A stretch of 64,000 bases of DNA from Intestinimonas butyriciproducens (GTDB lineage Bacteria; Bacillota; Clostridia; Oscillospirales; Butyricicoccaceae): assembly GCF_016901775.1 (NCBI RefSeq), contig NZ_JACJKW010000004.1, positions 1 through 64,000 of the forward strand, given 5' to 3'. Below, piece by piece: positions 9,324 through 64,000 of this stretch. The position numbers were made by a program, and so were the translations under genes. The notes below the pieces were generated by a model. That model did no database searches, was not told the DNA's origin, and saw nothing but the letters and a program-made list of their open reading frames with translations. The first letter of the stretch is position 1, and each line of letters begins with the position of its first letter.

Positions 9324-10154
9324 TTAAAAATCCCCTTCCATCACCACATCGTCGGAAGGATCCTGCACAAAGCCCTGGGAAAGATAGAACTCCTCCATGG
9401 CCTTGTCCTCCCGGGGGAAATGGACGGTGATACGGGGCACGCCCCGGCTTCTGGCCTGGCCGACGGCATAGGAAAGACCCTTTTCCAGATCTCCATGAAG
9501 CCCTGCGATATACAGAGCACGCTTCGGCTGGAACCGGGCGCCCAGGGCCAGAACACAGCCTTCTCCTTCGTAGAGCCAGCCCTGGGAGACAAAGCCCCCA
9601 TAGGTGCCCTCATTCATCTGGTAGAAGGTGTGATTACAGCACATGGTATCCCCGAACGCCTGTCGACAAGGCTCCAGCAGAAAAGCGGCCCGGTCTTTGT
9701 CCGCCACCAGAGCCAGGCCATCGGCCTTATTCCGGGGCGCTTTTTCCACTTCCAGGGTCATGCCTTTGAATTCTCTTCCCCGGTGCAGGCCGTTTTTTTC
9801 TGCCAAGGCGGCGCTGGCCACATTTTTGACCCCGGTATACATGGCCGCCCGGGGGCAGCCCATATCCTTTATCTGCTCCAGGTACCGGCGGTAGATGGCC
9901 ATGCCCATGCCCCGGCGCTGGAACTGGGGATCCACCCGCAAAAGCTCCAGCCAGGCCGAACCGTCAAAGAGCACCGTCAGTTTGCCGAACCCGGCGGGCT
10001 CACCGTCGGCCAGGGCCACGGTGAGCTCCCCACGGGTGGTGGTGAAATAATCGGCCACATCGGCAAAATACCGGTTTTTCGGGGCGGTATGTTCTTCGAT
10101 GAGAAGGCAGCGGGACAGATCGTCCTTTCGGAAAGGTCTGGTGGAAATTTCCAC
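9324..10154 (-). CDS. GNAT-family N-acetyltransferase.
   Basis: Acetyl-CoA-binding motif QFQRRGMGMAIY. GTG start with AGGAGGGG RBS. Confidence 0.8.
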   Translation of the reverse strand: MEISTRPFRKDDLSRCLLIEEHTAPKNRYFADVADYFTTTRGELTVALADGEPAGFGKLTVLFDGSAWLELLRVDPQFQRRGMGMAIYRRYLEQIKDMGCPRAAMYTGVKNVASAALAEKNGLHRGREFKGMTLEVEKAPRNKADGLALVADKDRAAFLLEPCRQAFGDTMCCNHTFYQMNEGTYGGFVSQGWLYEGEGCVLALGARFQPKRALYIAGLHGDLEKGLSYAVGQARSRGVPRITVHFPREDKAMEEFYLSQGFVQDPSDDVVMEGDF

Positions 10155-19937: not shown

Positions 19938-20530
19938 GGCTGAGCCTTTCCGGCCTTCGCCCGGCAGATCAGCTGGGTCATGGTGCCCATGGGGCAAAAG
20001 ACACACCAGGAGCGGGGCATCCACAGCACCATGGCAATAAAGCCGATGAGGGTGGAAGTGAGCATCAAAGAATAAAACCCAAAGGCAAACTGAGCCACCC
20101 AAGGGGCGAACAGGGTGCCATGGTAGGCCCAGTGCCAGGGCAGGCGGAAAGTCCAGAAGAGCTTCACCGTCTGCCCCAGTTCCTGCTGCCCTGCCCCTAC
20201 CAGATAGGTGGTGAAGAGCATCTGGAAGAACATGGCGAAAAAGAAGATCAGAAATCCATAGCGGAACCAGCGGCTTCCCAACCACCGTGGGGTGGGACGG
20301 CGGCGGGACAGGCCCAGCTTGCCTCCCAGCAGGGCAAAGAACCGGCCCCGGTCACAGTAGCGGTTGCAATAGAGTTTTCCCCCGCCAGCCAATGCGATGA
20401 TCAGGGGCAGACAAAAGAAAATCATCCCCAGCCAGGCAAAGAGGATGTTGAAAAATCCCAGTCCCAGATAAATGGGGGTCACGATCCACAGGTATTCATA
20501 CCAGGGCCGCTTCCTGCCGGTTTTCTTCAT
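19934..20530 (-). CDS. Polyferredoxin-like 4Fe-4S-binding integral membrane protein (NapH/MauN-like).
   Basis: TM segments plus CNRYC and CVFCPMG cysteine motifs. Translationally coupled to its neighbours. Confidence 0.6.
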   Translation of the reverse strand: MKKTGRKRPWYEYLWIVTPIYLGLGFFNILFAWLGMIFFCLPLIIALAGGGKLYCNRYCDRGRFFALLGGKLGLSRRRPTPRWLGSRWFRYGFLIFFFAMFFQMLFTTYLVGAGQQELGQTVKLFWTFRLPWHWAYHGTLFAPWVAQFAFGFYSLMLTSTLIGFIAMVLWMPRSWCVFCPMGTMTQLICRAKAGKAQP

Positions 20531-26673: not shown

Positions 26674-26750
26674 GCGCCCATAGCTCAGCTGGATAGAGTG
26701 TCTGACTACGAATCAGAAGGTCACAGGTTCGAATCCTGTTGGGCGTGCCA
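26674..26750 (+). tRNA. tRNA-Arg (anticodon ACG), with encoded CCA.
   Basis: Manual cloverleaf: acceptor GCGCCCA/TGGGCGT, anticodon stem TCTGA/TCAGA, loop CTACGAA, T-loop TTCGAAT. Confidence 0.9.
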
Positions 26751-49045: not shown

Positions 49046-49119
49046 TGGAGCGGGTAAAGGGAATCGAACCCTCCTATTCAGCTTGGGAAGCTGACGTTCT
49101 ACCAATGAACTATACCCGC
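49046..49119 (-). tRNA. tRNA-Gly (anticodon CCC), with encoded CCA.
   Basis: Manual fold: acceptor GCGGGTA/TACCCGC, anticodon stem TCAGC/GCTGA, loop TTCCCAA, T-loop TTCGATT. Confidence 0.9.
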
Positions 49120-56146: not shown

Positions 56147-56304
56147 CCCCTTCTTTGTTGCCTCTATTCTATCTGCTTTCTCTCTTTTTGCAAATATCAG
56201 GATATCCCCCAAGCAGAGATGGAAAACCATTCCTTTTCTTCCATCGACATCCATTTTTATCCGGTGCTATACTTATTATAATATAAAAAAGAGAGGTGTC
56301 CCTG

Positions 56305-56866
56305 ATGAAAAAACGCATCCTTTCCCTCCTTCTGATCCTGTGCCTTTCTCTGGGACTTCTGCCCGCCGGCGCTCTGGCCGCAGGCACCCAGACCGTCAAA
56401 ACGGCTGTGACGGTGGATTACGGCGCCGCCATAGAGGCGGTGGAATATCTCAACCACCACCGCCGACGGCAAGACTTCCGGCTCCTGCCGTGTCACCGTA
56501 TCCAACCCCTCCCAGGGCTCCCACAGCTTCACCGATGTGTCCCAAAGCGATTATTTCTACGACGCCGTCATGTGGTGTGCCGATGAAGGGCTCCTGGATG
56601 AGGCCGGCAATACGGTGGGGGTCTACACCCCTTGCACCCGTGCAGAAATGGTGTACCACCTGTGAAAACTGGCCGGTTCTCCCGAGCCCATCACCTCCAT
56701 CAACGCCTTCTCCCACCTGTCCTCCCTGTCCACTCAGGAGCGAAAAGCCATTCGCCGGGCCGTGGAGGAAAACATCGCCAACGGCACCAGCATCACCACC
56801 TTCTCTCCCAGCATGGTGCTCACCCGGGCCCAGGTATTCACCTTCCTCTACCGGTACTACAACTGA
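56305..56866 (+). pseudogene. Disrupted gene for a secreted SLH-like-domain protein: signal peptide, then a frameshift near 56440-56460, then an in-frame TGA at 56663.
   Basis: MKKRILSLLLILCLSLGLLPAGALA continues in another frame as ...SHSFTDVSQSDYFYDAVMWCADEGLLDEAGNTVGVYTPCTRAEMVYHL*KLAGSPEPITS...YRYYN*. Confidence 0.5.
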
Positions 56867-56880
56867 TCTTTCCCATCCCC

Positions 56881-56911
56881 GAAGCTGCGGCTTCGGGGAT
56901 TTTTTTGTCTG
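56881..56911 (+). terminator. Rho-independent terminator (CCCCGAAGCtgcgGCTTCGGGG plus TTTTTTT).
   Basis: Read directly. Confidence 0.75.
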
Positions 56912-56967
56912 GAAAAGGTGAAAACGGCAGCAAATTCTTAGAAAAGTCTGAACTTTTGACCAAAGGA

Positions 56968-56996
56968 TTGGCATCTTCCCTGTTTTCTGGTATAAT
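56968..56996 (+). promoter_or_regulatory. Promoter for the LCP gene (TTGGCA, 17-nt spacer, TATAAT).
   Basis: Motif match. About 125-nt 5' UTR. Confidence 0.55.
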
Positions 56997-57121
56997 AGCG
57001 GGGCTTACGAAAAAAACAGCGGCTTTCCGGCAACTTTTTGCCGGAGAAATCCGTCTAAAAAAAGACAGTCCGGAAGCAGGCTCCCATGAGCCGCTTGCCA
57101 AAGGAGGCTTTTTTCAGAAAA

Positions 57122-58177
57122 ATGGCACAAGGAAAACGAGTAGTACGAAAAAAACGCCGTCGTCGCCATCGGGGCCGGGTCCTTTTCTGCTGGCTGCTGA
57201 TTTTGCTGGGCCTGGGTGGTGTGGGTTTTTATTTTTGGAGAATGATGACTTCCTATGATTACAATCCCTTAGACGACAGCGATCTGGGCATTGTGCAGCC
57301 CCAGCAGCCGGTGAGCGACAAAATCACAAACATCGCCCTGTTCGGCGTGGACTCCCGAGCCGGGGAAAATTCCCGGTCCGACGCCATGATCATCCTGTCA
57401 GTAGATCCCAAGCGTGGGAAAGTCAAGATGTCCTCCCTGATGCGTGACGCCTATGTGGAGATCGACGATCACGGCATGACCAAGCTATGCCACGCCTATG
57501 CTTATGGCGGGCCGGAGCTGGCCATCAAGACCATCAACCAGAATTTCCAAATGGACATCAGCGAATATGCCACCGTCAACTTTAACCAGATGGCCGATAT
57601 CATCGATGCCATCGGCGGTGTGGAACTGGAGGTCTCCCAGGCCGAAATGGACGAAGCCAACGACGCACTGTGGGAGTATTGTGTGTTCAACGACCTGATC
57701 TGGGATGATTACAAATTCACCGAACCGGGGCTTCAGACCCTGAACGGTCCTCAGGCCGTGGCTTACGGGCGCATCCGCAAAGGGGCCACCGGCGGCGATG
57801 CGGCCCGCACCAGCCGCCAGCAGGAGATTCTGGAAAAGATGATGGACAAGGTGATGGATATGAGCATTGTGAAATATCCCTCCCTGGCCGCAAAACTCCT
57901 GCCCATGGTGGAAACCAGCCTTTCCTCCAAAGAGATTCTTTCTCTGGCCACCCAGGTGCTTTCCGGCGGCAAGCCGGACATCGAACGGGCTACCTTCCCC
58001 TGCGAGGGTGAATGGTCGGAAAAACGCACCTCCAGCGGTCTTTCCGTGGTGGCCTACGAAGATGCATTGGCTGTAAAGCGCCTGCACGCATTCATCTATG
58101 ACGATCTGTCCATCGAGGAACAGAAAGCCCAGGAGCAATCCTCCGGCAGCACTGACACCGATACCGATACGCCATAA
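57122..58177 (+). CDS. LytR-CpsA-Psr (LCP) family cell-envelope phosphotransferase.
   Basis: N-terminal basic region plus TM segment. LCP core SDAMIILSVDP...KLCHAYAYGG. The start could instead be 57086. Confidence 0.8.
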   Translation: MAQGKRVVRKKRRRRHRGRVLFCWLLILLGLGGVGFYFWRMMTSYDYNPLDDSDLGIVQPQQPVSDKITNIALFGVDSRAGENSRSDAMIILSVDPKRGKVKMSSLMRDAYVEIDDHGMTKLCHAYAYGGPELAIKTINQNFQMDISEYATVNFNQMADIIDAIGGVELEVSQAEMDEANDALWEYCVFNDLIWDDYKFTEPGLQTLNGPQAVAYGRIRKGATGGDAARTSRQQEILEKMMDKVMDMSIVKYPSLAAKLLPMVETSLSSKEILSLATQVLSGGKPDIERATFPCEGEWSEKRTSSGLSVVAYEDALAVKRLHAFIYDDLSIEEQKAQEQSSGSTDTDTDTP

Positions 58178-58353
58178 CATTCAACCATACTTTTTATCGC
58201 GATCTGTGAATACGGCCAGAACTTCCGTAACAAGCGGTCAGACTGTATGTGCTTCCACATCGGCCCTAATGGGAGATCTGAGCCGCTTCCAGTTGGCGAT
58301 TGACCGCATCAAAAATAAGAGCATCGATTTGTGATCAATGGAGGAAAAAGTCA

Positions 58354-58554
58354 ATGGACTATTTATGGCTGCTGGCTTTGCTGATTTTAGGGGGCTGTAT
58401 GCTATGTTATCCAAAAACATTATGGAAGATAGAGAATCTATTAACGGTCAAGAATGGTGAGCCATCCGAATTATATTTATTTTTGATGCGGATCGGCGGC
58501 GTATTTTTTATTCTTTGTTCGCTCGGCATAACCGTGTATCTATTGATGAAATAA
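58354..58554 (+). CDS. Small hypothetical membrane protein (66 aa) in a low-GC region.
   Basis: GGAGG RBS 9 nt before the ATG. Two hydrophobic helices. Confidence 0.45.
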   Translation: MDYLWLLALLILGGCMLCYPKTLWKIENLLTVKNGEPSELYLFLMRIGGVFFILCSLGITVYLLMK

Positions 58555-59013
58555 ACCGCCCTTATCGGCATTCTGCTCTGGCCTTGTATCCTATCGTATC
58601 TAAAAAGCTCTAATAAAAAGCCGCTGTAAAGCATTGGATGGTTTTACAGCGGCTTTTTATATCCATCCCCATGCCACCATACATGGAAAAATCTGTGAAC
58701 ACACAGAAAAAGACAGTTTTTGAAAAATCTTTCTATCGTTACTTGGAAAAAAGCAGAGGAGATGCTATCAAAAGGGAACTATCTTACCACTGTTCCCTAT
58801 AAAATCTCGGAACTGGAATATATCCGCAAAGTAGAGCTTGTTTATCGCAGCGAAACATACGATACATACTTCATGCTTTATTACTGCTTCTATGTAGAAT
58901 TGCCTGAGCAAGAAGGGAAAAATGGACTGAAAACCTATGGCACATATTGTGTACCAGCGGTAAGATCTGATCATATTTCCAACATTCCAACATCGGCAGG
59001 AAACTTTAACCAG

Positions 59014-59059
59014 CCAAAACAAAACGCCGCAAGAAGTATCTTGCGGCGTTTTGTTTTGG
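59014..59059. terminator. 20-bp-arm perfect inverted repeat (CCAAAACAAAACGCCGCAAG aagtat CTTGCGGCGTTTTGTTTTGG); bidirectional terminator-like.
   Basis: Read directly. Abuts the tRNA-like fragment. Confidence 0.7.
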
Positions 59060-59086
59060 CACCCCCAATAGGAATCGAACCTATAA
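59057..59086 (-). other. tRNA 3'-end-like fragment (T-arm ATAGG-TTCGATT-CCTAT, acceptor 3' strand TGGGGGT, discriminator G, CCA) with no 5' half; candidate att core or integration scar.
   Basis: The reverse complement reads ...AGTTATAGGTTCGATTCCTATTGGGGGTGCCA. No matching 5' acceptor, D-arm or anticodon arm upstream. Confidence 0.5.
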
Positions 59087-59241
59087 CTGCCCCTTAGGAG
59101 TGAGGTTGAGCCAATGAACCGCCGTGTTCCACAGTATCCTTACACATTTTATTGTGAAATACTAACACAAAACGGTCTTTGATGCAAGTGTCTCTTTGTG
59201 CATATTTTGCATCATGGCGTGTCGTCGGGATGAAAAACTGC

Positions 59242-59288
59242 TGATTAGCAAAGAATTAGCACACCCTTGATTAGCAGAAAATTAGCAG
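59242..59288 (+). repeat. Iteron-like direct repeats: 2x (TGATTAGCA-RAGAATTAGCA), giving four ATTAGCA cores; upstream of the ICE HTH gene.
   Basis: Read directly. Confidence 0.6.
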
Positions 59289-59382
59289 AAATCATCCCAC
59301 TTGCAATGTGTTTCTTCATGTAACTATGCGCTTTTTCAAGCCATCTTGCTTGTGGGGGAACTACCTTGAAAGGAGCTTCCTC

Positions 59383-60519
59383 ATGTTAGGCTATCAAGTT
59401 GAAATCAAGCAGCTCGTGGATTACCCCCGTTGCCGAGTACATCGGGAATTTATCCAAACGCTCATCGCAGACCGGAGCCTCCGAACCAACAACGGATGCT
59501 CCGGCCTTTTTTATTATGCCGTCCTCTGCTCCTATGCCAACTTCCGCACCTCCTACCGGCGGATCGATGGCATCACCTACACGATTTATCCTGGCGAATG
59601 GGTCTGCACATTTAAGGAACTGGCAGAATGGCTGCGCCTCCGAACAAAGCGGCGCATCTTTGACGTCCTGGACAGGCTTCAGGATGACCACCTGATCGAC
59701 TACAAGATTTTGGGGCGGGACAAGCTGGTGCGCTATCAGATCAAGGACTGGCGGCGGCATAACACTGTCCTGGACTATAACTGCCCCTGCCAAAAGGACA
59801 CAGGCTTCTACTTCCTCCCCGTGTCAACGGCCACCGACCTGATCAGCGTCGGCAGATGCTCAGAAATGGACATCCTGCTGGATCTCTGGATCTCAGCGGT
59901 CTACAATGATGAACGGGTACAGGGTTCCTTTACCGGGCCGGTAGCCTATTTCCGAAACGGGAGCGGGAAGCCGCTGGTGTCCTATGCGGATCTCGCCGCC
60001 CGCTGGGGGATCTCGAAGGCGACGGTTGGCCGGGTGCTGAAGAAGCTCTCCCGGCTGGGCCATATTACACTGGTGACCTTCCCAGGGCGCCACGGGACAG
60101 CCATCTACTTGAAAAACTATCTCTCCACCATGTTTCAAATCTCCGATGTCATGGTGGACAAGGCGGAGGTAGCCCTCTCGCTGAACATCAAGTTTCTTCC
60201 GCCCGACACGGAGCCAGAGGCGGCGGAGCGTTTCGCCTGCGGCCCAACGAGACTGCTTTTCGTTTCAAAAGCGTTCATGGACAATGTGGCGCAGAATGTC
60301 CTGCAACTCCTTGAGCGGCAAGGGGTTGCGTGCTCTCAATGCCCCCGTTGCTCCTATCAGTTATATCCATTATCCGACGATGGAAAGGGTGAGTGTATGG
60401 GAGAGCAGGAACAGCCGCATCGGTTCCGCATGGAGGTTTTCTGCGGCCCGGGTACTCCCCGCTATGTATTTGTCCTGTCCCTTGGCATCCTGCAGGAAGG
60501 GGTGACGGAGCATGGCTAA
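59383..60519 (+). CDS. ICE-associated HTH-domain protein with a C-terminal Cys cluster (replication-initiator / regulator-like).
   Basis: RBS AAAGGAG. HTH motif LAARWGISKATVGRVLKKLSRLG. Cys cluster CSQCPRC. Confidence 0.6.
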   Translation: MLGYQVEIKQLVDYPRCRVHREFIQTLIADRSLRTNNGCSGLFYYAVLCSYANFRTSYRRIDGITYTIYPGEWVCTFKELAEWLRLRTKRRIFDVLDRLQDDHLIDYKILGRDKLVRYQIKDWRRHNTVLDYNCPCQKDTGFYFLPVSTATDLISVGRCSEMDILLDLWISAVYNDERVQGSFTGPVAYFRNGSGKPLVSYADLAARWGISKATVGRVLKKLSRLGHITLVTFPGRHGTAIYLKNYLSTMFQISDVMVDKAEVALSLNIKFLPPDTEPEAAERFACGPTRLLFVSKAFMDNVAQNVLQLLERQGVACSQCPRCSYQLYPLSDDGKGECMGEQEQPHRFRMEVFCGPGTPRYVFVLSLGILQEGVTEHG

Positions 60520-61057
60520 AAAGCCCGTTGAGAAAAAGGTGGAAGACGATCCCCGCTACCACGACACCTGGCGCCTGTTGAAAAAGTACCGGGATGTGGT
60601 GTGGAGCCTGGAACTGTCCGTCCAGCAGTTGAAAAAGCAGTTTGAAGTGGAGTATGGGAGCAGTATCGAGGATTTTCTGGAGTCTGTCTACCTGGCCGGC
60701 GCAGATCTGGGCGGCACGGAGATTGAAAACCACGCCCGCTGCATTGAGCGGAGCCACAAGATGCTTTCCCTGCTGAACCATTCTGTGGATCTTCTTCGCA
60801 CCCGGCATAAAAACGGCGAGGAGTACTACTGGATCTTGTACTTCACCTATCTCTCCCCCCAGCAACTGAAAAATGCGGAAGAAATCATTGAGCAGCTCCG
60901 GCCTCATATGCAGGACATCAGTTTTCCCACCTACTACCGCAAGCGCAAAAAGGCGGTGGAGGCCCTCAGTTCCATTCTCTGGGGATATACCTCCCAGGAG
61001 TGCCTGCTGATCTTGGAGCAGTTTTACCCGCCGGAGGAAGGTGCGGCCCGAAAGTAG
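60512..61057 (+). CDS. Hypothetical ICE protein (181 aa).
   Basis: Overlaps the upstream gene by 8 nt. No family recognised. Confidence 0.55.
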   Translation: MAKKPVEKKVEDDPRYHDTWRLLKKYRDVVWSLELSVQQLKKQFEVEYGSSIEDFLESVYLAGADLGGTEIENHARCIERSHKMLSLLNHSVDLLRTRHKNGEEYYWILYFTYLSPQQLKNAEEIIEQLRPHMQDISFPTYYRKRKKAVEALSSILWGYTSQECLLILEQFYPPEEGAARK

Positions 61058-61314
61058 AATCTGTCCTGTTTCCCTCTGCTGATAGAGAATTGATACAGTT
61101 TTGAGAGTGAATTGAGAGGGTTTTGTTATTGTGCGGATAATCTTGATGTGGTACACTGGTCATGCTCAAAACTGTCCCTAAAACTGAAAACATCCGCAAA
61201 AGGCGCTTGCAGCGTCTTTTTTTCTGCCCTTTTGCGGGATCAAGACAGCACCTGGACCATCAGGTGCTGTCTTTGTTTTCAGCGGGAAAACTCGTCAAAG
61301 GAGGTCTTTTTCAG

Positions 61315-61701
61315 TTGAAACCGGAAAAAACGCCGCCCAATCAGCCGAGGCGAAGGGGCCCGAACTTCGCCCGTATCCTCTACATGGGTTATCTCTGTGT
61401 CTGTCTGAGCGTATGCTTTGCCTCTCCCGCATCAGCGGCCACCATTTGGGAGAAAGCGAGCGAGATCATGCAGGATGTCTACACGCAGATCCTCACCATC
61501 TCGACTATTGCGGCCATCGTCACCGCATCCGTGGCGCTCTTGATGATGAACTTCTCCCGCTCCGGCCGAACAGTCGAGGAGTCCCGGGCATGGCTCAAGC
61601 GGATCATCATCACCTGGGTCATCCTCAACGGCCTCGGATTCATTATGGCGTATGTTACGCCCTTCTTCCAGGGGGGCCAGTGGACGCCGTCCAGTCCCTA
61701 A
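61315..61701 (+). CDS. Small exported two-helix membrane protein; conjugative pilin-like (TrbC/VirB2-type topology).
   Basis: TTG start with AAGGAGG RBS. Signal-peptide-like N-terminus followed by two hydrophobic helices. Confidence 0.45.
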   Translation: MKPEKTPPNQPRRRGPNFARILYMGYLCVCLSVCFASPASAATIWEKASEIMQDVYTQILTISTIAAIVTASVALLMMNFSRSGRTVEESRAWLKRIIITWVILNGLGFIMAYVTPFFQGGQWTPSSP

Positions 61702-61707
61702 CCGCCT

Positions 61708-62418
61708 ATGGGAATTTTAGATGGCATTGTGGCCTGGATCGCGGAGCAAGTCATGCACGGCCTGGACTTGATCAATACATCAGTTTTGGGCGCTCTTGGC
61801 TGTGATATGTCCGTCTTTCTCCGCTATTTCCCTGCCGCAGAAACCATGTATGAGGTCTTTGTGGCTCTTGCCATCGGCCTGATCCTGCTGATCTGGATTT
61901 GGAACCTGGTCAAGAACTTCGGGCTTGGCCTTGGCACTGAAGCGGAAGATCCCGTGAAACTGAGCATACGGTCGGTCCTGTTCATTCTGCTGGCCTATTA
62001 TGCCAATGAAATTGTGGATCTCGTTCTCGGCATCGGCGGAACACCCTATGACTGGATCATGAATTCGGCTCTGCCAAGTCTGGATTTCGCGAGCTTTAAC
62101 TCGGTCATGCTTACCATCATCGGGGTCTGTGCAAGCGGAGCGGTGACGATCATCGTGCTGATTTTGGTGCTGATCCTCGCCTGGAACTATCTGAAATTAC
62201 TGTTTGAGGCGGCGGAGCGGTATGTTCTGCTGGGCATCCTGGTCTATACGGCGCCCGTAGCATTTGCGATGGGGTCCTCCCAGGCTACCTCCAATATTTT
62301 CAGGAGCTGGTGCCGGATGTTCGGCGGCCAGATTTTTCTGCTCCTGATGAACGCATGGTGCCTGCGGCTCTTTGTTAGCATGGTAGGCTCCTTCATTTCC
62401 AATCCGCTTTCCATTTGA
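61708..62418 (+). CDS. VirB6/TrbL-like polytopic conjugal transfer membrane protein.
   Basis: 236 aa, 5-6 TM segments. Translationally coupled to the pilin-like gene. Confidence 0.55.
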   Translation: MGILDGIVAWIAEQVMHGLDLINTSVLGALGCDMSVFLRYFPAAETMYEVFVALAIGLILLIWIWNLVKNFGLGLGTEAEDPVKLSIRSVLFILLAYYANEIVDLVLGIGGTPYDWIMNSALPSLDFASFNSVMLTIIGVCASGAVTIIVLILVLILAWNYLKLLFEAAERYVLLGILVYTAPVAFAMGSSQATSNIFRSWCRMFGGQIFLLLMNAWCLRLFVSMVGSFISNPLSI

Positions 62419-62426
62419 CAGGGGGA

Positions 62427-63578
62427 ATGAAAACGAAAAAGAGCATTCAATTTACAAGCATCCTTGTGCTTGCGGTAATTTTTTCTGTGTCCCTCGCGTT
62501 GCCGGCCTCCGCGATCAGTGAGGCCGATGTGCAGGCACAGGTAGACGCTGTCGGCCGTGAAACCGTGACCGGGAACGTGCTGATCTGGTTTTTGTGCGCC
62601 ATCGGCTTTCTCAAAGCGGCCCAAAAGATCGACAGCTTTATGGCCAGCCTGGGCGTCAATGTGGGACACACCGGCGGCTCCATGCTGGCAGAGGCGCTGA
62701 TCGCGGCCAGGGGTGTGGGGACGATTGCCGGCGCGATGGGTCACTCTTTGGGCGCTGCCGGCGGACATCGGGGCAGTTCCGGCGGAAACTCCGCCGCTGC
62801 ATCGGCAGGCGGCTTTTTCAAGGGCGGCCTGATCGGTATGGCCCGGCGCAAGGCTACCAGCGATGCAGTGAGGAGCGCGACATCCAGCACATCGGCCGTC
62901 CGCTCTGAACAGGTCAAGTCCACATCTGAGCAAACCGCCAGCCATTCCGCCCATACCAGCGAGCAGGCCGGTGTCAGGCAGACTGCCACCCATGAGGGAC
63001 ATCAGACTGTCCAGCAAACCGCGGCGAAGACGGCGGAGCATACCAGCCATACCGCCTCAGAAGTGACCCGTACACAACATCATACTGCCTCTTCCTTCCA
63101 GGGCGTCGGGTTGGGCGGCGCGATTTTTGCCAAGTCCTTACTGAAGGGCGGAGATTTCGCCAATGACGTGATCGGCACCGTTGCCCGGGGCGACATCCGC
63201 TCCGCAGGCTCCATCACCGGCGATCTTGCGGCGCAGTCCCTCCAGTCGTATCTGGGTTATACGGCGCTGGGGGCGGACGCCAAGGACACGCCGGCGTTCA
63301 CAAATGTGGAGATCGGCGGTGGCCGGATCACTGGGACCGAGACGGCTCCCGGCAGTTCGGAGGGCGTCGCTTTCGGGATGTACCATGCGGATCAATATAC
63401 CGAGCCGAAGGGGGACTTTACAAAAGTCCATGCCGCTGACGGCTCCCTTTGGTACAAGCAGTACGCCCAGGACGCTGTGGAGCGCAAGCCCTACAATGCG
63501 CCGGATGGCACAGTCGCTTACCAGGAGAGCATCGTCAAGAGGCTGCCTGATCCGCCCAAGCGTAAGGACCGACTGTAA
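62427..63578 (+). CDS. Secreted ICE protein with a Gly/Ser/Thr/His-rich low-complexity centre.
   Basis: Signal peptide MKTKKSIQFTSILVLAVIFSVSLALPASA. Confidence 0.5.
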   Translation: MKTKKSIQFTSILVLAVIFSVSLALPASAISEADVQAQVDAVGRETVTGNVLIWFLCAIGFLKAAQKIDSFMASLGVNVGHTGGSMLAEALIAARGVGTIAGAMGHSLGAAGGHRGSSGGNSAAASAGGFFKGGLIGMARRKATSDAVRSATSSTSAVRSEQVKSTSEQTASHSAHTSEQAGVRQTATHEGHQTVQQTAAKTAEHTSHTASEVTRTQHHTASSFQGVGLGGAIFAKSLLKGGDFANDVIGTVARGDIRSAGSITGDLAAQSLQSYLGYTALGADAKDTPAFTNVEIGGGRITGTETAPGSSEGVAFGMYHADQYTEPKGDFTKVHAADGSLWYKQYAQDAVERKPYNAPDGTVAYQESIVKRLPDPPKRKDRL

Positions 63579-63589
63579 TTAGGAGGTCT

Positions 63590-64000
63590 ATGAAACACGA
63601 AGAACGGGACATCTACACGATCCCACCCAATTTTATCGAGGGCGGCACCCTGCTGGGCGGTATGTTCAGGACCCGGAATGTGGTGGAGGCCGGCATCCTC
63701 GCCGTGGCTATGGGCGGTCCGGTCCTTTCTCTGCACTTTTCCCTTACCGTCCGCATCATCATTCTCTGTTTCACCGCCCTGCCTCTGGCGCTTGTGGCCC
63801 TCATCGGCATCAACGGCAGCAGCCTGTCCTCATTTTTCATCCAGTTGTTTAGTTTCCTCCGAAATCGGAGGGTGCTGTCGGCAGACGAACCGACGGACAC
63901 ACCGAAGAAAAAGCCGATCCTCCCAAGTTGGGCCAGACGCAAGCCGCCAAAGCCGGCGGCCGAGGACGAACAGGAGCGGCCCAAAAGCCGCAATCGCCTT
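63590..64000 (+). CDS. PrgI/VirB3-like small membrane protein (5' part; continues beyond the window).
   Basis: AGGAGG RBS. MKHEERDIYTIPPNFIEGGTLLGGMFRTRNVVEAG. Two TM segments. No stop codon before the window end. Confidence 0.5.
   Translation, partial: MKHEERDIYTIPPNFIEGGTLLGGMFRTRNVVEAGILAVAMGGPVLSLHFSLTVRIIILCFTALPLALVALIGINGSSLSSFFIQLFSFLRNRRVLSADEPTDTPKKKPILPSWARRKPPKPAAEDEQERPKSRNRL

What the first reader, a model, noticed from the sequence alone, without database searches (positions are those of the whole stretch)
58180..59106. Low-GC segment ending in a 20-bp-arm inverted repeat and a tRNA 3'-end fragment: the junction of a mobile element
After the LCP gene the GC content drops sharply for about 0.9 kb. 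The segment holds only a small membrane ORF and a doubtful ORF, 58720-59097, that runs through a terminator hairpin. It ends in a perfect 46-bp palindrome that directly abuts a 30-nt tRNA 3' fragment (T-arm, acceptor strand and CCA on the minus strand, no 5' half). Partial tRNA 3' ends are the classic direct-repeat cores left by tyrosine-integrase elements.
Basis: partly seen in the sequence, partly recalled or inferred. Interest (0 to 1): 0.65.

Follow-up and report, generated by a model that had tools for sequence, protein, structure and literature searches.

The report
Conjugative element junction in tRNA-Arg gene
The tRNA scrap at 59.1 kb is the displaced 3' half of the host's tRNA-Arg(CCT) gene, split in its anticodon loop by a large conjugative element that runs rightwards out of the window; this is a textbook kind of junction, and the low-GC stretch and the palindrome are decayed host DNA and the tRNA's own terminator.

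Summary
GC falls to 0.41 over 58180-59106. There is a perfect palindrome at 59013-59060 (22-nt arms, 4-nt loop). It overlaps the GCCA end of a minus-strand tRNA 3' fragment, which is 44 nt long (59057-59100), not 30. The fragment is C32 to A76 of tRNA-Arg(CCT).

A sister strain (L013) has the empty site: an intact tRNA-Arg(CCT) followed by the same type of terminator. To the right of 59100 lies a conjugative element, with VirB6-like, VirB4 and VirD4 genes, a sortase and an adhesin. I followed it for at least 45 kb in near-identical copies.

Copies of this element whose first protein is 99-100% identical sit in at least four other host alleles. They share the arm ...CAACCTCA|CTCCTAAG and then carry each host's own tRNA-Arg(CCT) 3' half. 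About 30 more distant relatives do the same, and one sublineage uses tRNA-Thr(GGT).

So 59100/59101 is the attR junction, with the crossover in the anticodon loop. The palindrome is the tRNA's own terminator. The low-GC stretch is a decayed, strain-variable host patch: a DUF6199 gene plus the 3' remnant of a 404-aa gene.

I did not recover the far end, the restored tRNA or the recombinase, so "tyrosine integrase" remains an inference. This is an ordinary kind of feature and of low interest.

The parts
57086..58177 (+). LCP (LytR_cpsA_psr) gene, host chromosome, left flank
   Evidence: Pfam PF03816, E = 1.7e-41. 97%-identical protein P0121 in sister-strain contigs L013-L022.
58354..58554 (+). 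DUF6199 small membrane protein gene, a strain-variable islet
   Evidence: Pfam PF19701, E = 9e-12. Present after LCP in L016 and L021. Not called in L013, L014, L015, L017, L018 or L019.
58613..58660 (.). Inverted repeat (18-nt arms, 12-nt spacer) flanked by A and T runs; probable terminator after DUF6199
   Evidence: Collinear with L016.
58733..58736 (.). Deletion junction at a CTAT microhomology. Relative to L016, 1.56 kb is missing here: the ECF sigma gene and about the first 310 codons of the 404-aa gene.
58733..59012 (+). 3' remnant (pseudogene) of the 404-aa gene that follows an ECF sigma factor gene in sister strains. Its stop codon is lost, so ORF 58720-59097 reads on through the terminator and the tRNA fragment.
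   Evidence: 79% nt identity to L013 12805-13126. 70% aa identity over 92 residues, E = 3e-42.
59013..59060 (.). Perfect palindrome (22-nt arms, 4-nt loop): the bidirectional intrinsic terminator of the tRNA-Arg(CCT) gene. Host DNA.
   Evidence: A homologous terminator follows the intact tRNA at the empty site, L013 20095-20140.
59057..59100 (-). Displaced 3' half of tRNA-Arg(CCT), positions 32-76: anticodon loop CTCCTAA, 3' strand of the anticodon stem, variable loop AGTT, T arm, 3' strand of the acceptor stem, G73, CCA
59093..59100 (-). Core CTCCTAAG shared by every insertion of the element; the crossover lies within it or at its edge
59101..59382 (+). Left arm (P arm) of the conjugative element. 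AT-rich, with four ATTAGCA direct repeats starting at 59244, 59255, 59270 and 59281.
   Evidence: 92.5-95.5% identical over the arm in L028 and L030, and identical over the part read in L141-L143, up to the core. The repeats are the only 4 ATTAGCA in the 64 kb and are conserved in relatives.
59383..60519 (+). First gene of the element: 378-aa protein with a winged-helix HTH at about residues 191-236
   Evidence: Pfam MarR_2, E = 4.7e-8. 518 relatives in the metagenome scan.
60512..61057 (+). 181-aa element protein, no family hit
61315..61701 (+). 128-aa membrane protein of the transfer region
   Evidence: Gene call in L001.
61753..62418 (+). 221-aa multi-pass membrane protein, weakly TrbL/VirB6-like
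   Evidence: Pfam PF04610, E = 0.0011, below the cut-off. Gene call.
62427..63578 (+). 383-aa secreted or surface protein of the element
63590..64000 (+). 5' end of the 981-aa VirB4/TraC-like ATPase gene, cut by the end of the window
   Evidence: L001 11603-14548, TraC-like and P-loop_TraG.

Best explanation
Position 59100/59101 is the attR junction of a large integrative conjugative element (ICE) of at least 45 kb. The ICE is inserted by site-specific recombination into the anticodon loop of the host's tRNA-Arg(CCT) gene, which lies on the minus strand. The ICE occupies 59101 to beyond 64000.

The 44 nt at 59057-59100 are the host's own displaced 3' half of that tRNA, still followed by the tRNA's hairpin terminator (59013-59060). 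The crossover lies in or at the edge of CTCCTAAG, that is, the anticodon loop plus G39.

The low-GC 0.9 kb to the left is not mobile-element DNA of this event. It is a strain-variable host patch that has decayed by deletions. It consists of a DUF6199 gene and the 3' stump of a 404-aa gene, fused after a 1.56-kb deletion at a CTAT microhomology. A 7-kb block (aldo-keto reductase gene to the 207-aa gene) that separates this patch from the tRNA in sister strains is also missing.

Shown: the fragment's identity, the empty site, the conjugation genes, and the same element end at the same tRNA position in other hosts.

Inferred: that the recombinase is a tyrosine integrase encoded near the far end, and that the far end carries a regenerated or chimeric tRNA.
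For: 1. Fragment. The 41-mer is identical to 10 intact tRNA-Arg(CCT) genes. Similarity stops exactly at position 31/32.

2. Empty site. L013 comes from a strain whose LCP protein is 97% identical to the window's (flanking DNA about 93% identical). It has an intact tRNA-Arg(CCT) at 20137-20211 on the minus strand, followed by a homologous terminator. Window 59016-59100 matches L013 20095-20180 at 93%.

3. Element. The Logan contig SRR11789411_80 is identical to the window over 11.6 kb. It and near-identical copies show this gene order:
- HTH protein, VirB6-like, VirB4 (981 aa), DUF5697, DUF6100, VirD4 (664 aa), S1-domain protein;
- sortase, 1736-aa TED/SpaA adhesin, C39 peptidase, SSB, DUF932, YkgJ, N6-methylase/SNF2.

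4. Same end, other hosts. L028, L030, L141, L142 and L143 have an HTH protein 99-100% identical to the window's. They share ...GGCTCAACCTCA|CTCCTAAG and then continue with four further, different tRNA-Arg(CCT) 3' halves and terminators.

5. Family habit. About 30 relatives (57-69% HTH identity) carry CTCCTAA plus a tRNA-Arg 3' half 248-453 nt upstream of the HTH gene. One sublineage carries TTGGTAA plus a tRNA-Thr(GGT) 3' half. None of the 56 loci scanned contains an intact tRNA.

6. Hot spot. L014-L016 have the same 44-nt fragment, broken at the same base, but next to a different element.

7. Low-GC patch. It is collinear with sister strains. The equivalent DNA there is also low in GC: intergenic 0.36, sigma gene 0.47, 404-aa gene 0.41, DUF6199 region 0.40.

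8. Known pattern. In the Islander survey, 3760 of 3919 islands have 3' tDNA fragments and 2083 have anticodon-centred attP sites (PMC4383910).
Against: - No integrase (PF00589 or a serine recombinase belonging to the element), no relaxase and no intact or chimeric tRNA turned up in about 45 kb of element followed in near-identical copies, nor in more distant relatives.
- The far junction of this genome lies outside the data.
- The window's fragment has AGTT in the variable loop where sister strains have CGTT. I read this as strain polymorphism, but it could also mean that the crossover lay further 3'.
- Only one junction is seen. A shared recombination core cannot be told apart from a 7-8 bp target-site duplication.
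Confidence: 0.88

Rival explanations
1. The junction is as described, but the element is not moved by a tyrosine integrase. A serine recombinase, a DDE transposase or an unrecognised enzyme inserts it at the anticodon loop. CTCCTAAG would then be a short crossover or a target duplication, and the tRNA would not be restored.
For: No PF00589 protein in about 45 kb of the element or in relatives. The Vescimonas relative L145 has no annotated integrase or relaxase, though PLSDB's gene table is incomplete. The same element sits in hosts whose tRNA 3' halves differ strongly, so a single element-borne 3' half could not pair with every host's 5' half. In L083 the core is followed by non-tRNA DNA.
Against: Anticodon-loop targeting with a displaced 3' fragment is the commonest signature of tyrosine integrases (PMC4383910). 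A sublineage has moved to another tRNA at the same sublocation. The right-hand part of the element was never reached, so the absence of an integrase is not established.
Confidence: 0.2
2. The low-GC segment 58180-59056 is itself foreign. Either it is the decayed remnant of an older element that entered the same tRNA, so that the fragment and terminator are that element's copy, or it is flank carried in from a low-GC Congzhengia-like donor.
For: GC is 0.41 against 0.57-0.59 for the chromosome. The 41-mer is identical to tRNAs of genomes with 36-44% GC. The DUF6199 gene and the sigma/404-aa genes are present or absent among strains.
Against: The fragment plus terminator is 93% identical to the native tRNA locus of the sister strain. 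The same element in other hosts carries those hosts' own 3' halves, so the 3' half is not transported. The patch is collinear with strains that lack this element (L013, L016). No second tRNA fragment lies near 58180. No part of the patch other than the tRNA matches the Congzhengia loci.
Confidence: 0.07
3. The tRNA-like stretch is a chance resemblance or a terminator-associated motif, not a gene fragment.
For: ARAGORN and Rfam report nothing here.
Against: Exact 41-nt identity to 10 annotated-quality tRNA-Arg(CCT) genes. Zero matches expected by chance. An intact gene sits at the homologous place in L013.
Confidence: 0.01

Closest known systems
Genomic islands and ICEs integrated at tRNA genes by tyrosine integrases, anticodon-loop ('A') sublocation (Williams 2002; Islander database, PMC4383910)
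   Same: A displaced 3' tDNA fragment in the tRNA's orientation, bounded exactly by foreign DNA. The break is in the anticodon loop. Relatives have an empty site with an intact tRNA. Several different elements use the same tRNA.
   Different: The regenerated tRNA and the integrase gene, which Islander requires, were not seen. The same element occurs in hosts with quite different tRNA-Arg(CCT) sequences.
Conjugative elements of Clostridia whose VirD4-like coupling protein NCBI names 'CD1115 family', annotated in Oscillospiraceae (Vescimonas fastidiosa pMM35_02)
   Same: The module order is similar: HTH protein, VirB4/PrgI-like, DUF5697, DUF6100, VirD4, S1-domain protein, pilin and sortase, C39 peptidase, SSB, DUF932, N6-methylase, ParM. 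In pMM35_02, however, the C39 peptidase gene precedes the VirB4/PrgI-like gene.
   Different: The Vescimonas and Subdoligranulum copies (54-56% HTH identity) sit on large secondary replicons without a tRNA fragment at their end. The window's lineage is chromosomal and specific for tRNA-Arg(CCT).
Bidirectional intrinsic (Rho-independent) terminators downstream of tRNA genes
   Same: A GC-rich stem (CGCCGCAAGA/TCTTGCGGCG) flanked by an A-run and a T-run, directly after CCA. It is conserved at the empty site.
   Different: The arms are unusually long and perfect (22 nt), because the A and T tracts and the tRNA's GCCA pair as well. The simple terminator scan did not call it.

Membership tests
tRNA-integrated island/ICE (Islander criteria) | tDNA fragment identical or near-identical to part of a tRNA gene, in the correct orientation, at the edge of foreign DNA | tested here: met
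   44-nt 3' half of tRNA-Arg(CCT) at 59057-59100 on the minus strand. Conjugation genes begin on its 5' side.
tRNA-integrated island/ICE (Islander criteria) | Uninterrupted tRNA at the homologous site in a relative without the element | tested here: met
   L013 20137-20211, intact tRNA-Arg(CCT) plus terminator. The flank is 93% identical.
tRNA-integrated island/ICE (Islander criteria) | Intact (regenerated) tRNA gene at the other end of the element in the same replicon | not testable with these tools
   The element runs past 64000. Contigs that could be fetched stop or diverge before the far end.
tRNA-integrated island/ICE (Islander criteria) | Integrase gene (Pfam PF00589) inside the element | tested here: inconclusive
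   None among the genes of about 45 kb of the element and its relatives. The rightmost part was not reached.
tRNA-integrated island/ICE (Islander criteria) | Site specificity: the same element end joined to the same tRNA position in independent hosts | tested here: met
   Five host alleles (the window and four others) among copies whose HTH protein is 99-100% identical, plus about 30 relatives.
Integrative conjugative element (ICE) | Type IV secretion ATPase (VirB4) and coupling protein (VirD4) | tested here: met
   981-aa TraC-like/P-loop_TraG protein; 664-aa T4SS-DNA_transf/TraG-D_C protein.
Integrative conjugative element (ICE) | Relaxase | tested here: inconclusive
   No relaxase family hit in Pfam (precomputed) or NCBIfam for the proteins examined. 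PLSDB types the Vescimonas relative as non-mobilizable.
Terminal inverted repeat of a transposable element | The inverted repeat belongs to the element and is absent from the empty site | tested here: not met
   The palindrome is present downstream of the intact tRNA in L013 and lies on the host side of the junction.
Intrinsic terminator | GC-rich hairpin followed by a U tract directly downstream of a gene | tested here: met
   Sequence and fold. Termination itself was not tested, and the consensus scan missed it.

The most novel reading that the evidence does not exclude
This widespread family of gut Oscillospiraceae conjugative elements may insert into the anticodon loop of tRNA-Arg(CCT) without a canonical tyrosine integrase and without restoring the tRNA. 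The enzyme would be one not yet recognised. One candidate is the conserved terminal 378-aa double winged-helix protein, acting on the conserved ATTAGCA repeat pairs that lie between it and the core.
Probability: 0.07. Interest if true: 0.6.

Novelty: new member of a known kind. Interest (0 to 1): 0.25.

Why it matters
It fixes to the nucleotide one end of a large conjugative element that is shared at 99-100% protein identity among several gut Oscillospiraceae, including Intestinimonas butyriciproducens. It also identifies tRNA-Arg(CCT) as a hot spot used by at least two unrelated elements in this species.

That helps genome annotation in three ways: the ORF 58720-59097 should be marked as a pseudogene remnant, the tRNA scrap as a fragment, and 59101 onwards as mobile DNA. 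It also helps tracking of horizontal transfer in gut communities.

It does not reveal a new mechanism.

Tried and rejected
1. Carried-in flank. I suspected that the fragment and the low-GC flank came from a low-GC Congzhengia-like donor, because the 41-mer hit only genomes of 36-44% GC. I rejected this after finding the native locus in sister strains and host-specific 3' halves in other hosts.

2. tRNA-Gly(CCC) at 49046 or tRNA-Arg(ACG) at 26674 as the intact partner. Rejected: the fragment is Arg(CCT). The only resemblance is 22 of 25 bases with Arg(ACG) in the T arm and acceptor stem.

3. Walking to the far end.
- Ids from the listing of cluster members were accepted, which gave three steps.
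- A homologue search on the sigma-like gene followed, with look-ups on P0353, P0377 and P0356.
- All of these ended in variable cargo or further backbone (Y-family polymerase, ParM). None reached an integrase or a tRNA.

4. IMG/VR scan with the HTH protein: no relatives.

5. PLSDB: only relatives at 54-56% identity, without tRNA junctions.

6. Structure of the 378-aa protein. The single-sequence model had pLDDT 41 and is unusable, so I ran no fold search. The PDB profile search gave only weak winged-helix hits. NCBIfam and Pfam gave only HTH hits.

7. Rfam on 57000-64000: only a spurious miRNA hit on the DUF6199 terminator.

8. Literature search for a described ICE family at tRNA-Arg in Oscillospiraceae: nothing specific.

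Full report
**What is in the sequence.**
- GC is 0.413 over 58180-59106, against 0.587 to the left and 0.556 to the right.
- The inverted repeat is perfect, with 22-nt arms (59013-59034 and 59039-59060) and a 4-nt loop. Together with the tRNA scrap it folds at -53.5 kcal/mol, z = -9.2.
- ARAGORN finds only tRNA-Arg(ACG) at 26674 and tRNA-Gly(CCC) at 49046 in the window, and nothing at 59.1 kb. Rfam finds nothing relevant.
- Read on the minus strand, 59100 to 59057 is CTCCTAA-GGGGC-AGTT-ATAGGTTCGATTCCTAT-TGGGGGT-G-CCA. These parts are an anticodon loop with anticodon CCT, the 3' strand of the anticodon stem, a 4-nt variable loop, a T arm, the 3' strand of the acceptor stem, the discriminator base and CCA.
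- The last four bases, GCCA, are part of the right arm of the palindrome.

**Is it a real tRNA piece?** Yes.
- The 25-mer from the T arm to CCA is expected 0.00 times by chance.
- An exact scan of one genome per species with the 41-mer found 10 places. All are intact 75-nt tRNA-Arg(CCT) genes.
- Aligned to them, the window is identical from C32 to the 3' end and unrelated upstream of position 31.
- The fragment is therefore 44 nt and starts in the anticodon loop.

**The empty site.**
- A search with the neighbouring LCP protein found a 97%-identical protein (P0121) on 22 contigs of the same or a sister species.
- In L013 the LCP gene is followed by these genes: ECF sigma factor, 404-aa protein, aldo-keto reductase, LysR, MerR, flavodoxins, CMD and a 207-aa protein. 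Then, on the minus strand, comes an intact tRNA-Arg(CCT) (20137-20211) with a palindromic terminator (20095-20140), and then an MFS transporter gene.
- Window 59016-59100 matches L013 20095-20180 at 93%.
- The only difference within the tRNA part is A for C in the variable loop.
- The tRNA and its terminator are thus native host DNA. The palindrome is the tRNA's terminator, not an element end.

**What lies to the right.**
- Within the window from 59383: a 378-aa winged-helix protein, a 181-aa protein, small membrane proteins, a weakly TrbL/VirB6-like protein, a 383-aa protein, and the start of a 981-aa VirB4-like ATPase.
- A Logan contig identical to the window over 11.6 kb, together with contigs 97-99% identical to it, continues with these genes:
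  - DUF5697, DUF6100, VirD4, an S1-domain protein, sortase, a 1736-aa TED/SpaA adhesin, C39 peptidase;
  - a sigma factor, SSB, DUF932, YkgJ, an N6-methylase/SNF2 protein, and an HTH_16/sigma-like pair.
- Then comes variable cargo. In relatives the backbone goes on with a Y-family polymerase and ParM.
- Several of these proteins are identical to annotated Intestinimonas butyriciproducens proteins such as WP_204750561.1.
- This is a large conjugative element of at least 45 kb.

**Where exactly it ends.**
- A metagenome scan with the 378-aa protein gave 518 relatives, of which 80 loci were kept.
- In copies with a 99-100% identical protein (L028, L030, L141-L143), the DNA upstream of the gene matches the window (92.5-95.5% over the arm) as far as ...GGCTCAACCTCA|CTCCTAAG. 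It then switches to four other, mutually different tRNA-Arg(CCT) 3' halves, each with its own terminator.
- About 30 relatives at 57-69% identity show the same thing 248-453 nt upstream of the gene. One sublineage shows TTGGTAA plus a tRNA-Thr(GGT) 3' half.
- None of the 56 loci scanned holds an intact tRNA. This fits the HTH-gene end always being the fragment (attR) side.
- So the element's left end is at 59100/59101, the core is the anticodon loop, and the rest of the fragment is supplied by each host.
- In sister strains L014-L016 the same fragment, broken at the same base, adjoins a different element with an HTH_17 gene. The tRNA is therefore a hot spot.

**The low-GC stretch.** It lies on the host side of the junction.
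- Relative to L016, the window is collinear through LCP, the DUF6199 gene and its terminator, as far as 58736.
- It then lacks 1.56 kb (the sigma gene and about 310 codons of the 404-aa gene), with a CTAT microhomology at the junction.
- It resumes in the last roughly 92 codons of the 404-aa gene (79% nt and 70% aa identity).
- That gene's stop codon has been replaced (TAA to CAG). This is why ORF 58720-59097 runs through the terminator into the tRNA scrap.
- The 7-kb block between this gene and the tRNA in sister strains is absent from the whole window.
- The 404-aa gene's own terminator and the tRNA's terminator resemble each other in L013. A deletion between them is therefore a plausible origin of the present single terminator, but this is an inference.
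- The equivalent DNA in sister strains is also low in GC (0.36-0.47). Low GC is thus a property of this accessory patch, not a sign of the element.

**Mechanism.**
- The anatomy matches the standard model for tRNA-targeting elements. Recombination occurs between an attP core and the anticodon loop, leaving a displaced 3' tDNA fragment at one end.
- The Islander survey counts 3760 of 3919 islands with 3' fragments and 2083 with anticodon-centred sites, attributed to tyrosine integrases (PMC4383910).
- I could not show three things: the other junction, a regenerated tRNA, or the recombinase. No integrase or relaxase family hit appeared in about 45 kb.
- PLSDB relatives at 54-56% identity have neither tRNA junctions nor annotated integrases.
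- Because one element occurs in hosts with very different tRNA-Arg sequences, full restoration of the tRNA in every host is doubtful.
- I put about 0.88 on the attR/ICE reading and about 0.65 on a tyrosine integrase specifically.

**Verdict.** The feature is a new member of a well-known kind and of low general interest.

Noticed in passing
window 59244-59287: Four direct ATTAGCA repeats lie in two pairs, 11 bp apart within each pair, between the att core and the 378-aa HTH gene. They are the only four ATTAGCA in the 64 kb. Pairs with the same 11-bp spacing recur upstream of the gene in relatives with only 57-69% protein identity. They are likely binding sites: arm-type sites or an operator.
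   Followed up: partly
L014 20095-20181, L015 18112-18198, L016 13124-13210: Sister strains carry the same 44-nt tRNA-Arg(CCT) fragment, broken at the same base, but next to a different element. That element has an HTH_17 gene about 230 bp away, and the assemblies break there. The tRNA is an integration hot spot for at least two unrelated elements.
   Followed up: partly
L049, L061, L067, L074, L090 (upstream of the HTH gene): A sublineage of the element family abuts TTGGTAA plus a tRNA-Thr(GGT) 3' half instead of tRNA-Arg(CCT). The target tRNA has switched, but the anticodon-loop sublocation is the same. Other relatives (L032, L145) end at ...CCTAATTTCAT with no tRNA.
   Followed up: partly
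L083 about 9690-9700; L093, L096, L106: In L083 the core CTCCTAA is followed not by a tRNA half but by the terminator of another conjugative element (VirB4-like, VirD4, RepA_N, DUF5697-like). This could be tandem accretion or a secondary site. In L093, L096 and L106 the core is followed by a degenerate tRNA-like stretch next to Fic and methyltransferase genes.
   Followed up: partly
window about 56296-57000 (alignment break at 56454-56456): Relative to L013, the window lacks about 614 bp inside the SLH/CAP-domain gene that precedes LCP (L013 8756-9369). Sister strains show other deletion variants here. This region of the window has only overlapping short ORFs and is probably a decayed surface-protein gene.
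   Followed up: no
L002 18713-20140 and L107-L128: Element proteins are 100% identical to RefSeq proteins of Intestinimonas butyriciproducens or of 'Eubacteriales/Oscillospiraceae' (WP_204750561.1, WP_204750567.1, WP_204750578.1, WP_204750579.1). The host LCP's best named relative is Acidaminobacterium chupaoyuni at 61%. This points to recent transfer between genera.
   Followed up: partly
L111 11035-14571: In one copy of the element the 387-aa gene after the S1-domain gene is cut short. It is followed by resolvase fragments and a 539-aa large serine recombinase gene, which suggests a secondary insertion inside the element.
   Followed up: no
L121-L128 around 19173: Copies of the element diverge just after the sigma-like/HTH_16 gene pair, and several assemblies end within about 1 kb of that point. 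This looks like a cargo hot spot: response regulator, SpoIIE, BlaR/BlaI-type (Peptidase_M56/Penicillinase_R) or ABC transporter genes, depending on the copy.
   Followed up: partly
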